Shown piece by piece: positions 20,503-36,225 of a stretch of DNA of 64,000 nucleotides. Source of the stretch: Chrysomallon squamiferum (Eukaryota > Animalia > Mollusca); contig CM022676.1 of the NCBI GenBank assembly GCA_012295275.1, positions 16,802,001-16,866,000 on the forward strand, in the 5' to 3' direction. Under the pieces are notes generated by a model. That model was not told the origin of the DNA, searched no databases, and saw nothing but the letters and a program-made list of their open reading frames with translations. The position numbers were made by a program, and so were the translations under genes. The first letter of the stretch is position 1; the number at the start of each line of letters is the position of its first letter.

Positions 20503-21108
20503 GCAATTATTGTGCGCTATCTTGTACTTCTGGATGCAAATTTATTGCATTGATGAATTATTTTTAGTGATAATAATGGAGTGTTAACGATCGTATCTTG
20601 TTTTCAGTGAGTGTTTATAAGCAGACCTGAAACAAAGCAAAGATGCAATTTCATTAGCATGTTTCTTTAATCACATTTTTCAAGAACCATCTTCAAATGA
20701 GAAATTTGAATAAGTTAATGGTTTCCTTTTCCATCATAGAGTGCTTATCCAGCTACGTTCAGGTACATTAAATATGTAACCAATATCAAATTTAGTCGTC
20801 ATTATTTTTTAAATTCTGTTTTCGATAACATTTATTGTTTTTTAATTACATACTTACTTATATATCTTGTTCTTAGTCATGACATATTTTAACTCTAAGA
20901 TTCACTTTTGGAGATATATTGACGTATTTTTTCGACTCCCTTGCAGCTTTACCGTTCAAACAGAAACCAAAAGATTCATCCTAATGTTTCTAAATGTGCA
21001 TTTCATTTGCTCTTGTAATGATACACGTTATTCCGTTCCTTTTTTCTTTCTTTCTTTCTTTCATTTTTTCAAATACAAAAATATATATATACATATATAT
21101 ATTTGTAG

Positions 21109-23173
21109 ATGCAACCCTTTCTGTTGCATTCATACCTTCAGCTCCAGGAAACATTGTTGAAGGAGAAACTCTAAATGTCACCTGTGTTTCTAATTGTGAC
21201 TCATCTTGTGTCTACACGTGGAGAAGTGAAGATCGGTATTTGGTCAACAGCTCTCAGTTAACTGTTGGTCCTGTTAGCAGAAATCAGACTGGACAAACAT
21301 TTACATGTACAGCAAAAAGATATGGATATTCAGGAAGTAACCAGTTCCAGCTTAGAGTTCTTTGTAAGTTCCAGATTCACAGATACAATTACAACTTCAA
21401 ATACGCATGAACGCACGCACACATGTCAATCACAGAAAACAAACAAACATTAAGAAAAATATTAAATGCCAGCTTTGCAGTTCTTGTTCATATCCGCTCT
21501 TCTTGTGTTACGTGAAAGCCTGATAATGATATATAAGAATATCAAAAATTAGCATACTTTATACAGCGATTACTTCATCATTTCTTCACATTTTCAATAT
21601 CTCACTCGCAACACAATTGTAATTTAGTACACACAGTTTTAGAATTCTTTGCTGTTACTCATTCGTAGTAAAACAGTTATTGTAGCTTCTCAACTTTATA
21701 AACACCTTTTCTTTTCTTTATCTCGTTTTGACAGATACACACTTCCCAACCAAAGAGCTTCATCTATAATAAGAATCTGTCATTCACAATAATGTATTTT
21801 TTTTTTTATGTATCATATGTAAATTATATTGTAGCTTTTCTTCATTCTGGACTCAATTTCTAAAATTATCCAGTCAAAAACTCGGATGACTCTTAAATTG
21901 TTAAAAACAGTTAAAACTGCATGAGGAGTCTCTTTGATCTTTCGCTTTAGTGAACTTTTCAAATATCTGAGAGCTATCAAGATTTCGAAACTTCATTACA
22001 TGTTCGGTTTCTTCTTTTGTTTTACTTGTTCCAAAATAAGCGAAATTCTTGTCATCCTTAATAGAAAACTTCAGAGTCTACTGGAGAAAGGTGTAAGAGT
22101 AGATGTTCTTGTAGATGAGCTGACACTGTTACCTTCTCATTACAGTACTTGTGTGAAAAAGTTAAAACTGGTTTTCTTTTAGCTACATACAAATAAACAA
22201 TTCTTTATAAATATCGTTCCTACTTTAAATCAATATAAATAATATTTATCTTTTCTGGTTTTATTTTGTGTTAATTCGAATGTACTGGTAAATGACTCGT
22301 TTCATCTTGCAGCTCAATCGTCAGTGATTTCACGTGTAGTACATGTGTTGTATTATTGCAGACCGAACTTCTATCACATCTTTGACGTTAAACTCGAATT
22401 CTACAAAGTTAACAGTTGATGAGCTGACTCCCATGACTCTGAGATGTGAAGTTGACAGTAATCCAGCATCTCACATCAAACTGTTAAACAGATCTCAGAT
22501 TATACGTGAAGTGTACAGCTCCAAGTCAGTGGAGTACAGCTGGAATGAAGCTGGATGTCTGGATACAGGATTTTACATTTGTGAAGCAGGAAACAACATC
22601 AAGTCTGATGTCAGTCAAAGCGTGCAGCTCGTTGTTAAATGTAACGTCTATTTTAACACATTACATTATCAGTAATAACAAAATAAGCAACGTACACACT
22701 CGTGTGCAAGTATATACATACATGCATACATGTACGCAGAGACGCACAGACAAACACTCATAATCCGACACGCTCAGACACACACACGCTCGCATCCACA
22801 CTGTTTTCTTTCTTCTTCTGATATGGTCAGGTTTATCAACGTTTATTAGCTTGACTGTCTTTTTGCCTACAAGGTCAACCCAGGATTCCTTCTAGTGTGA
22901 ACGTACAGAGAATCAGCTCTTCTGCCATCTCAGTGACTTGGACAGAGGAATTTAACGGCGGCTTCGTGCAGACATTCATAGTGCAGTACAGAGAAATCAC
23001 GTCAGCACACTGGATCAACGTCACAGAGAAATTTCTAGAACGTGGTCTCCATACAACCCACACAACAGTAATAGCATCTCTGAAAAGAAACACGAAATAT
23101 GTTGTGAGGATTTTGGCTTATAACAAATACGGAGATAAAGGTTTTACAGATGAGAAAGATATTTTGATGACAG
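21109..23173 (+). CDS. Cassette 1: Ig1 (21109-21363) + Ig2 (22362-22640) + FN3 (22874-23173)
   Basis: AG/GT-bounded exons of 255, 279 and 300 nt, all phase 1-1 and open. Ig2 has [11 protein letters not shown]...DTGFYICEAGN; FN3 has [38 protein letters not shown]. Confidence 0.9.
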
Positions 23174-23906
23174 GTACGCATATTAATAATGAGGTAACAC
23201 GCACTTCAATAAAGTTATGTATCATAGCATTTCATTTGTTCACAGTCTCGATAGGACCGGAAAACAGTTTTATAGCTTATTTTACCATGAACGTTTTAGA
23301 AATCGCAATTATTGTGCGCTATCTTGTACTTCTGGATGCAAATTTATTGCATAGATGAATTATTTTTAGTGATAATAATGGAGTGTTAACGATCGTATCT
23401 TGTTTTCAGTGAGTGTTTATAAGCAGACCTGAAACAAAGCAAAGATGCAATTTCATTAGCATGTTTCTTTAATCACATTTTTCAAGAACCATCTTCAAAT
23501 GAGAAATTTGAATAAGTTAATGGTTTCCTTTTCCATCATAGAGTGCTTATCCAGCTACGTTCAGGTACATTAAATATGTAACCAATATCAAATTTAGTCG
23601 TCATTATTTTTTAAATTCTGTTTTCGATAACATTTATTGTTTTTTAATTACATACTTATATATCTTGTTCTTAGTCATGACATATTTTAACTCTAAGATT
23701 CACTTTTGGAGATATATTGACGTATTTTTTCGACTCCCTTGCAGCTTTACCGTTCAAACAGAAACCAAAAGATTCATCCTAATGTTTCTAAATGTGCATT
23801 TCATTTGCTCTTGTAATGATACACGTTATTCCGTTCCTTTTTTCTTTCTTTCTTTCTTTCATTTTTTCAAATACAAAAATATATATATACATATATATAT
23901 TTGTAG

Positions 23907-34372: not shown

Positions 34373-35106
34373 GTACGCATATTAATAATGAGGTAACACG
34401 CACTTCAATAAAGTTATGTATCATAGCATTTCATTTGTTCACAGTCTCGATAGGACTGGAAAACAGTTTTATAGCTTATTTTACCATGAACGTTTTAGAA
34501 ATCACAATTATTGTGCGCTATCTTGTACTTCTGGATGCAAATTTATTGCATAGATGAATTATTTTTAGTGATAATAATGGAGTGTTAACGATCGTATCTT
34601 GTTTTCAGTGAGTGTTTATAAGCAGACCTGAAACAAAGCAAAGATGCAATTTCATTAGCATGTTTCTTTAATCACATTTTTCAAGAACCATCTTCAAATG
34701 AGAAATTTGAATAAGTTAATGGTTTCCTTTTCCATCATAGAGTGCTTATCCAGCTACGTTCAGGTACATTAAATATGTAACCAATATCAAATTTAGTCGT
34801 CATTATTTTTTAAATTCTGTTTTCGATAACATTTATTGTTTTTAATTACATACTTACTTATATATCTTGTTCTTAGTCATGACATATTTTAACTCTAAGA
34901 TTCACTTTTGGAGATATATTGACGTATTTTTCGACTCCCTTGCAGCTTTTACCGTTCAAACAGAAACCAAAAGATTCATCCTAATGTTTCTAAATGTACA
35001 TTTCATTTGCTCTTGTAATGATACACGTTATTCCGTTCCTTTTTTCTTTCTTTCTTTCTTTCATTTTTTCAAATAAAAATAAAGAAATATATATATATAT
35101 TTGTAG

Positions 35107-35360
35107 ATGCAACCCTTTCTGTTGCATTCATACCTTCAGCTCCAGGAAACATTGTTGAAGGAGAAACTTTAAATGTGACCTGTGTTGCTAATTGTGACTC
35201 ATCTTGTGTCTACACGTGGAGAAGTGAAGATCGGTATTTGGTCAACAGTTCTCAGTTAACTGTTGGTCCTGTGAGCAGAAATCAGACAGGACAAACATTT
35301 ACATGTACAGCAAAAGCTATGGATATTCAGGAAGTAACCAGTTCCAGCTTAGAGTTCTTT
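35107..35360 (+). CDS. Cassette 6 (partial): Ig1 exon with apparent 1-nt deletion
   Basis: 254 nt rather than 255; the A-run at 35312-35315 has 4 A versus 5 in cassettes 4-5. It lies near the contig end, so it may be a homopolymer sequencing error. Confidence 0.65.
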
Positions 35361-36225
35361 GTAAGTTCCAGATTCACAGATAAAATTACAACTTCAAATA
35401 CGCATGAACGCACGCACACATGTCAATCACAGAAAACAAACAAACATTAAGAAAAATATTAAATGCCAGCTTTGCAGTTCTTGTTCATATCCGCTCTTCT
35501 TGTGTTACGTGAAAGCCTGATAATGATATATAAGAATATCAGAAATTAGCATAATTTACACAGCGATTACTTCATCATTTCTTCACATTTTCAATATCTC
35601 ACTCGCAACACAATTGTAATTTAGTACACACAGTTTTAGAATTCTTTGCTATTACTCATTCGTAGTAAAACAGTTATTGTAGCTTCTCAACTTTATAAAC
35701 ACCTTTTCTTTTCTTTATCTCGTTTTGACAGATACACACTTCCCAACCAAAGAGCTTCATCTATAATAAGAATCTGTCATTCACAATAATGTATTTTTTT
35801 TTTTATGTATAATATGTAAATTATATTGTAGCTTTTCTTCATTCTGGACTCAATTTCTAAAATTATCCAGTCAAAAACTCGGATGACTCTTAAATTGTTA
35901 AAAACAGTTAAAACTGCATGAGGAGTCTCTTTCATCTTTCGCTTTACTGAACTTTTCAAATATATCTGAGAGCTATCAAGATTTCGTTTTGAAACTTCAT
36001 TACATGTTCTGTTTCTTCTTTTGTTTTACTTGTTCCATAATAAAGCGAAATTCTTGTCATCCTTAATAGAAAACTTCAGAGTCTACTGGAGAAAGGTGTA
36101 AGAGTAGATGTTCTTGTAGATGAGCTGACACTGTTACCTTCTCATTACAGTACTTGTGAAAAAGTTAAAACTGGTTTTCTTTAGCTACATAAAAATAATT
36201 TTAAATATGTTCCATTTAAATCAAT

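What the first reader, a model, noticed from the sequence alone, without database searches (positions are those of the whole stretch)
20503..36225. Intragenic tandem amplification of a 2.8 kb Ig-Ig-FN3 cassette giving an in-frame (Ig-Ig-FN3)n stalk
Seen: five complete units and one partial unit, each adding 278 codons. The FN3 donor (ACA G|gt) joins the next Ig1 acceptor (ag|AT GCA) in frame. I found no TM, leader or SRCR exon in the unit, so these are not whole-gene copies. Introns are as similar as exons, implying very recent expansion or ongoing homogenisation. The array ends in a gap, so the true copy number may be higher. Inference: a coding macrosatellite that tunes ectodomain length or avidity, or a pool of alternatively used cassettes.
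Basis: partly seen in the sequence, partly recalled or inferred. Interest (0 to 1): 0.8.

Follow-up and report, generated by a model that had tools for sequence, protein, structure and literature searches.

The report
Snail receptor with repeated stalk block
A 2.8-kb block of three exons is repeated head to tail five and a half times in what is likely a vent-snail surface-receptor gene, where it would lengthen the receptor's stalk; a related snail has a predicted receptor with a separately evolved repeat of the same kind, but this copy starts with a broken unit and may not be translated.

Summary
The array is there: five whole 2.8-kb units and one partial unit, 96-99.6% identical. Each whole unit has three phase-1 exons (Ig, Ig, FN3; 278 codons) and the frame is open. 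Neighbouring units are most alike, and unit variants recur in other animals' contigs, so it is probably not read noise. It belongs to a snail SRCR-Ig-FN3-TM receptor family; a complete paralogue model lies at 37065-51030. Gigantopelta aegis has a predicted homologue, SRCR3-(Ig-FN3)6-TM, whose array arose separately, so repeat stalks recur in this family. Position 20503 is a deletion breakpoint: a diverged unit 0 keeps its Ig2 acceptor, and using it gives a stop at 20585. Unit 6 has a 1-nt deletion, probably a sequencing error. The contig sits between two gaps with no leader, SRCR or TM exon, and the one RNA run showed no FN3-to-Ig1 joint. Verdict: a real coding-type macrosatellite like LPA KIV-2 or DMBT1, new in its unit and in the parallel case; translation is unproven. 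The alternative-cassette idea is not supported.

The parts
17849..18048 (.). 200-N assembly gap left of the array contig
18624..18878 (+). Unit 0 Ig1 exon, intact; 91-93% identical to array Ig1 and 94% to gene B Ig1
19692..20232 (.). MITE-like insert with terminal inverted repeats in the unit-0 Ig1-Ig2 intron; shared with gene B (about 46499-47035), absent from array units (ends approximate)
20484..20502 (+). Broken unit-0 Ig2 exon: intact acceptor (score 12.4; the 23 annotated acceptors score 3.5-15.1), 19 nt of exon, then a deletion junction (microhomology 20500-20502). Read-through stops at 20585; donors at 20606 and 20762 lie after the stop
20503..23304 (+). Unit 1: Ig1 21109-21363, Ig2 22362-22640, FN3 22874-23173
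23174..23906 (+). Chimeric FN3-to-Ig1 intron (post-FN3-like 23174-23383; pre-Ig1-like 23553-23867): the duplication junction
   Evidence: tiled to 23795 by two overlapping contigs of run X6
23305..26105 (+). Unit 2: exons 23907-24161, 25161-25439, 25674-25973
26106..28909 (+). Unit 3 (mosaic of U1/U2-type and U4-U6-type tracts): exons 26707-26961, 27966-28244, 28479-28778
28910..31697 (+). Unit 4: exons 29511-29765, 30755-31033, 31267-31566; private 12-nt intron deletion
31698..34503 (+). Unit 5: exons 32302-32556, 33559-33837, 34073-34372
34504..36225 (+). Partial unit 6: Ig1 35107-35360 with a 1-nt deletion in an A-run (frameshift); indel-rich toward the contig end
36226..36425 (.). 200-N assembly gap ending the array
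37065..51030 (+). Paralogue 'gene B' (my hand-made model): SRCR x4 (two exons each)-Ig1-Ig2-FN3-TM-tail with two Tyr motifs; open frame but needs two GC donors (39513, 48099); no leader found
53219..57761 (+). Paralogue remnant 'gene C': broken Ig3 fragment fused to an FN3 end (53219-53560), then intact TM and tail exons (55234-57761)

Best explanation
This is a head-to-tail array of a three-exon Ig-Ig-FN3 block, likely inside one gene of a snail SRCR-Ig-FN3-transmembrane receptor family and likely grown by unequal crossing-over, that would encode a long glycosylated stalk holding the SRCR heads farther from the membrane. Shown: the array, open frame in U1-U5, the chimeric FN3-to-Ig1 intron, neighbour-graded variants, family homology, and a separately derived (Ig-FN3)6 array in a predicted G. 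aegis homologue. Inferred: one founding duplication through the introns; growth and homogenisation by unequal crossover or conversion; SRCR exons and a leader in or beyond the left gap and a TM exon in or beyond the right gap; skipping of the broken unit-0 Ig2 acceptor so that Ig1(U0) splices to Ig1(U1), which is in frame; and a stalk or spacer role (6 N-glycosylation sequons per unit; about 12 nm per unit from recalled domain sizes).
For: Open 278-codon units with conserved splice sites. 18 of 20 informative sites split the six units at a single point in physical order; 8 of 720 orders do as well. U3's sites fall in tracts (4 runs over 16 sites, p=0.009). Run X1 carries the U1/U2 letters at 21545 and 21557 while X3 carries the U4-U6 letters, so both kinds exist outside this assembly; two X6 contigs overlapping by 30 letters (23149-23395, 23366-23795) tile the chimeric intron. 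Contig start 18049-20502 is 79-85% identical to gene B's pre-Ig1-to-Ig2 region, which follows an SRCR exon. G. aegis XP_041372971.1 is leader-SRCR3-(Ig-FN3)6-TM, with 187-aa repeats 166-181 of 187 identical, beside single-cassette paralogues P0173 and P0174. Trees place each species' array with its own single-cassette paralogues; one clade of both arrays is rejected (p-AU 1e-55 for FN3, 5.5e-5 for Ig1). U1 vs U5: 5 synonymous of 188 sites and 4 non-synonymous of 643, p=0.03.
Against: The broken unit-0 Ig2 acceptor is as strong as working ones, and no cryptic donor before the stop restores the frame. U6 is frameshifted. No leader, SRCR or TM exon is on the array contig, and the first exon after the right gap is an SRCR, not a TM. 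RNA run X8: 21 contigs laid, all on exons; the 8 listed each have 2-8 other letters and several carry paralogue-type letters or ends; no joint was listed. An open frame is weak evidence in so young an array: P(no stop in 12 substitutions)=0.54. Non-synonymous divergence is not below intron divergence (4/643 vs 19/1936, p=0.48). The G. aegis proteins are annotation models whose RNA support I could not see. U1/U2-only letters at 21654-22034 were not seen in X1 or X3.
Confidence: 0.52

Rival explanations
1. The array is real but lies in a dead or dying allele: a birth-and-death by-product of an unstable paralogue cluster. The unit-0 deletion makes a poison exon and the repeats drift neutrally.
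For: Poison exon; U6 frameshift; neighbouring gene C is broken and gene B needs two GC donors; unit-private exon changes are 4 non-synonymous to 1 synonymous, as expected under neutrality; no array-specific RNA joint.
Against: All 15 exons of U1-U5 are intact, while all private indels of U1-U5 fall in introns; exon skipping restores the frame; a homologue model with an intact repeat stalk exists; only one small RNA run was laid.
Confidence: 0.3
2. The assembly inflated the array, for example by joining two haplotypes' shorter arrays (U1-U3 and U4-U6) or by placing a low-coverage contig here between two gaps.
For: 18.2-kb contig flanked by two gaps; scattered single-base homopolymer indels and a degraded U6 end; X1 shows only the U1/U2 letters and X3 only the U4-U6 letters at 21545 and 21557, as alleles would.
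Against: Units within each half still differ by substitutions and a 12-nt deletion, so at least three units per haplotype remain; unequal crossover between homologues gives the same pattern; contigs drop minor variants.
Confidence: 0.12
3. The units are a pool of alternatively used cassettes that diversify the ectodomain (Dscam-like).
For: All exons are phase 1, so skipping keeps the frame; G. aegis isoforms X1 and X2 have 6 and 5 repeats.
Against: U1-U5 differ at 6 of 278 residues, so there is almost nothing to choose between; aligners create false splices between repeats (PMC10632439, abstract); in DMBT1 transcript repeat number mostly follows gene repeat number (PMC9038570, passages).
Confidence: 0.06

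Closest known systems
Gigantopelta aegis XP_041372971.1 / XP_041372972.1 (RefSeq names 'titin-like X1' and 'Dscam-like 1 X2')
   Same: Same family: SRCR heads, homologous Ig1 (42-44%) and FN3 (50-51%), TM; near-identical repeats of a multi-domain stalk block, 6 or 5 copies.
   Different: Unit is Ig-FN3 (187 aa), not Ig-Ig-FN3 (278 aa); derived separately by tree test; the model is complete from leader to TM; automatic names only, and no description found in my searches.
Human LPA kringle IV type-2 VNTR
   Same: Kilobase multi-exon unit (5.6 kb, two exons, 1 to about 40 copies), introns included, with sequence subtypes (KIV-2A/B/C) inside the array (PMC11462820, passages).
   Different: One domain per unit, secreted protein, copy-number variation and protein size effect proven; here three exons of two domain classes and neither variation nor translation shown.
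Human DMBT1 SRCR repeat CNV
   Same: SRCR-bearing pattern-recognition protein whose repeat number changes protein size and bacterial binding (PMC9038570, passages).
   Different: DMBT1 repeats the SRCR ligand domain and has CUB and ZP domains; here the repeated part is the Ig/FN3 stalk of a TM protein.
'DMBT1' SRCR gene expansion of the scaly-foot snail
   Same: Tandem SRCR paralogue cluster in a peltospirid (up to 65 copies, 0-5 SRCR each, high in mantle and scale epithelium; PMC7142155; 70 copies in PMC7736800; passages); Ig and FN3 proteins were found in sclerites (PMC11871041, passages).
   Different: The passages I saw describe gene-level and SRCR-number variation, not an Ig-Ig-FN3 cassette array. 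I did not establish that the window is from this species or this cluster.
Hydractinia Alr family
   Same: Clustered Ig-Ig-Ig-FN3-like-TM genes and pseudogenes with Tyr motifs in the tail (PMC9546547, abstract, outline and section 9).
   Different: No homology tested; no SRCR; the tails here fail the ITAM spacing (18 residues against 6-9).

Membership tests
Coding macrosatellite (LPA KIV-2 type) | Kilobase multi-exon units head to tail | tested here: met
Coding macrosatellite (LPA KIV-2 type) | Introns as similar as exons across units | tested here: met
   12/834 vs 21/1945, p=0.45
Coding macrosatellite (LPA KIV-2 type) | Each unit adds an in-frame protein repeat | tested here: met
   met for U1-U5; U6 Ig1 is frameshifted and unit 0 is broken
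Coding macrosatellite (LPA KIV-2 type) | All units lie in one spliced transcript | tested here: inconclusive
   no joint in 1 RNA run of contigs; gene ends hidden by gaps
Coding macrosatellite (LPA KIV-2 type) | Copy number varies between individuals | not testable with these tools
   contig depths are not copy numbers and no single-copy control was laid
Peltospirid SRCR-Ig-FN3-TM family (G. aegis 'DMBT1-like') | Homologous Ig1 and FN3 domains | tested here: met
   Ig2 67-88% to 22 G. aegis V-Ig-type paralogues
Peltospirid SRCR-Ig-FN3-TM family (G. aegis 'DMBT1-like') | SRCR exons upstream and TM exon downstream in the same gene | tested here: inconclusive
   met for gene B; none on the array contig; contig start is paralogous to gene B's SRCR-to-Ig1 intron
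Vertebrate DMBT1 | SRCR array plus CUB and ZP domains | tested here: not met
   the gene B model is fully accounted for by SRCR, Ig, FN3, TM and tail; the repeated unit has no SRCR
Dscam-type alternative exon clusters (features recalled) | Arrays of sequence-diversified alternatives of one exon | tested here: not met
   a three-exon block is repeated and U1-U5 differ at 6 of 278 residues
ITAM receptors (Alr-like) | Yxx[I/L]x6-9Yxx[L/I] in the tail | tested here: not met
   spacer 18 in genes B and C (consensus); one ITIM-type match in gene B; the array's own tail is unknown

The most novel reading that the evidence does not exclude
Peltospirid vent snails have at least twice turned the Ig/FN3 stalk of an SRCR receptor into a coding macrosatellite, (Ig-Ig-FN3)n here and (Ig-FN3)n in G. 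aegis, making stalk length a copy-number-variable molecular ruler that sets how far the SRCR heads reach into the symbiont coat or the mineralising matrix.
Probability: 0.3. Interest if true: 0.72.

Novelty: new variant of a known kind. Interest (0 to 1): 0.5.

Why it matters
Known coding macrosatellites (LPA, DMBT1) repeat one domain and are mostly human examples. A three-exon, two-domain-class stalk block, amplified separately in two related snail lineages within one receptor family, would be a clean natural test of whether ectodomain length, rather than the binding head, is under selection in invertebrate recognition or matrix proteins. It also shows that the 'DMBT1-like' expansion reported in these snails may hide structural variation inside genes that short reads collapse. 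If the allele is dead, it is an ordinary product of an unstable gene cluster.

Tried and rejected
No whole genome is held for this window, so the gaps, other paralogues and single-copy depth could not be examined. Depth: exon bins run about 10-300 times deeper than unit-intron bins in the three non-RNA runs, which fits many paralogues sharing exons; summed contig depth is not copy number, so I draw no count. Holes: X1 has no cover from 23219 and X3 none over 23403-23678; the tool filters records, so this is no evidence that those animals lack the array. Absence of RNA joints in X8 is likewise not proof. Whole-gene duplication rejected: no TM, tail or SRCR match in the contig. A single template copied by rolling-circle or read artefact rejected: variants are shared in ordered blocks. 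Leader-exon scan: 2 hits on + and 2 on -, i.e. chance level. tblastn of G. aegis V-type and SRCR proteins found nothing in 1-17848. FN3 word search among longer proteins: 0 of 22 candidates passed. Search with the G. aegis cassette: 16 hits among 4534 candidates, close ones only from G. aegis; I did not see a further array, but lengths were limited to 734-2337 aa. Literature: 0 papers held all of SRCR, immunoglobulin, fibronectin type III, ITAM, mollusc; searches listed no paper on this array (listings only, open-access library; supplements not opened, and Supplementary Data 2 of PMC7142155 may bear on domain content). Earlier-findings look-ups were empty.
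Full report
Observation. The window has two 200-N gaps (17849-18048, 36226-36425), and the array fills most of the 18.2-kb contig between them. Six unit starts were found (20503, 23305, 26106, 28910, 31698, 34504). U1-U5 are 97.8-99.6% identical counting gap columns, and U6 is 96.4-98.0% identical to them. Each whole unit has exons of 255, 279 and 300 nt, all phase 1, giving 278 codons with no stop across U1-U5. Pfam calls them Ig, Ig and fn3. Exons and introns are equally similar: 12 of 834 against 21 of 1945 columns, p=0.45, after dropping two misaligned blocks at 20927-20947 and 21070-21100. 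No TM, tail or SRCR exon matches the contig.

What was missed. The contig begins with a diverged 'unit 0' (18049-20502), 79-85% identical to 45475-47359 of the downstream paralogue and sharing a MITE-like insert with it, but only patchily 71-82% like the array introns. Its Ig1 exon (18624-18878) is intact. Its Ig2 exon starts at 20484 and is cut after 19 nt, fused through a 3-nt microhomology to array sequence that derives from the post-FN3 intron. So 20503 is a deletion breakpoint; the real unit boundary lies between 23383 and 23553, where post-FN3-like intron gives way to pre-Ig1-like intron. The orphan acceptor scores 12.4 on a small matrix built from this window's own sites (range 3.5-15.1). 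Using it gives a stop at 20585; the better donors (20606, 20762) lie after the stop, and the two weak donors before it shift the frame. A long stalk therefore needs this acceptor to be skipped. U6 Ig1 lacks one A in an A-run; U6 has 9 of the 18 private indel events and degrades toward the gap, so this is probably a consensus error, but that is unproven.

Is the array real? Of 20 informative substitution sites in six units, 18 split the units at one point in physical order, and 8 of 720 orders match that. U3 carries U1/U2-type and U4-U6-type letters in tracts (4 runs over 16 sites, p=0.009). This is what local unequal crossover or conversion leaves, not random error or repeated copying of one template. 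Eleven public runs were listed, 9 holding part of the stretch, from 3 studies; I laid 4 on 21103-23836. X1 has the U1/U2 letters at 21545 and 21557, X3 the U4-U6 letters; both have the U3-U6 letters at 21654-22034. Two X6 contigs overlapping by 30 letters (23149-23395, 23366-23795) tile the chimeric intron, though no single record bridges it all. These support real, shared variants and the FN3-to-Ig1 adjacency. They also fit a haplotype join at U3/U4, which would still leave three distinct units per haplotype.

What gene is it? Right of the gap my hand-made model 'gene B' reads SRCR x4-Ig1-Ig2-FN3-TM-tail without a stop, using two GC donors; a broken 'gene C' follows. Array exons are 86-92% identical to gene B's, dN/dS about 0.5-0.6. 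The tails have two Tyr motifs 18 residues apart, outside the ITAM spacing of 6-9, with one ITIM-type match in gene B (consensus from PMC9546547 section 9). All 22 hits to Ig2 were Gigantopelta aegis proteins, mostly (V)-Ig(n)-Ig2-Ig3-FN3-TM; none repeats Ig-Ig-FN3. The organism is therefore likely a peltospirid other than G. aegis (inference; species not determined).

The parallel case. The top hit of the FN3 search was P0023, G. aegis XP_041372972.1, and its cluster mate XP_041372971.1: leader-SRCR3-(Ig-FN3)5 or 6-TM, with 187-aa repeats 166-181 of 187 identical. Single-cassette paralogues P0173 and P0174 exist too. In trees (30 FN3 rows, 43 Ig1 rows; three window units per tree; P0023 and U6 left out) each array groups with its own species' single-cassette paralogues (100/99 and 100/98 for FN3), and one clade of both arrays is rejected (p-AU 1e-55 and 5.5e-5). 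With different units (two domains against three), independent amplification is the simplest reading; within-genome conversion of an older array could mimic it. These are annotation models and I could not see their RNA support; the 5/6 isoform difference could be an alignment artefact between repeats (PMC10632439, abstract).

Is it expressed? RNA run X8 gave 21 contigs, all on exons, with no joint listed. The 8 listed pieces each differ by 2-8 letters; some carry gene-B-type letters, and one runs from Ig2 into a sequence I read as the Ig3 exon of other paralogues. The family is expressed; the array is not shown to be. Selection evidence is thin: U1 vs U5 has 5/188 synonymous and 4/643 non-synonymous changes (p=0.03), but the non-synonymous rate is not below the intron rate (p=0.48), private changes are 4 non-synonymous to 1 synonymous, and an open frame is expected by chance about half the time.

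Mechanism. Most likely an Ig1-Ig2-FN3 block was duplicated through its flanking introns, then grown and homogenised by unequal crossover, with a later deletion breaking unit 0 (inferred). If translated, each unit adds three domains with 6 N-glycosylation sequons, about 12 nm by recalled domain sizes, lifting the SRCR heads. The ligand is unknown: SRCR genes of this snail family have been tied to both immunity and scale or shell secretion (PMC7142155, PMC7736800, PMC11871041; passages). I put 0.52 on a working stalk array, 0.30 on a real but dead allele, 0.12 on assembly inflation and 0.06 on alternative cassettes.

Novelty. It works like LPA KIV-2 (PMC11462820, passages) and DMBT1 repeats (PMC9038570, passages), and meets the sequence features of that kind; transcript and copy-number features are untested. 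New are the three-exon mixed-domain unit and the parallel array in a relative. My searches (listings) showed no description of it. Also read: PMC10855680, PMC7895826 and PMC10875847 (passages only), which give context on SRCR and immune-gene expansions and nothing on this array. Verdict: new variant of a known kind, interest 0.5.

Noticed in passing
P0172 / P0023 (G. aegis XP_041372971.1, XP_041372972.1): Predicted SRCR3-(Ig-FN3)6-TM receptor with 89-97% identical repeats, named 'titin-like' or 'Dscam-like' by automatic annotation; a second, independent stalk array.
   Followed up: partly
window 37065-45173: SRCR1 and SRCR4 exon pairs of gene B share intron similarity (76-86%), an older internal duplication. 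A possible 14-nt micro-exon at 44220-44233 precedes SRCR4, so gene B may be two genes.
   Followed up: no
window 39513 and 48099: Gene B's model needs two GC splice donors; array units have GT at the FN3 donor.
   Followed up: no
window 53219-57761: Gene C remnant: a broken Ig3-type exon fused to an FN3 end, yet TM and three tail exons are intact; its post-FN3 intron is the closest match to the array's.
   Followed up: partly
window 1-17848 and 61500-63450: Degenerate repeated blocks (67-78% alike) with a 25-nt invariant core ending in a donor-like site (about 1818, 10147, 63198) and a second AG...GT micro-exon-like site; no protein match. Possibly 5' UTR exons or regulatory blocks of the cluster.
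   Followed up: partly
window 20484-20762: The best-scoring donor after the broken Ig2 acceptor gives a pseudo-exon of 279 nt, the same length as the true Ig2 exon; it holds a stop, so probably coincidence.
   Followed up: partly
window 20998-22034 against 22035-23304: Shared variants among units cluster in the Ig1 half of the unit; the Ig2-FN3 half is almost uniform, so homogenisation is uneven.
   Followed up: partly
P0012, P0021 (G. aegis): Other internal duplications in the family: three Ig1-like domains in P0012 and two FN3 in P0021.
   Followed up: no
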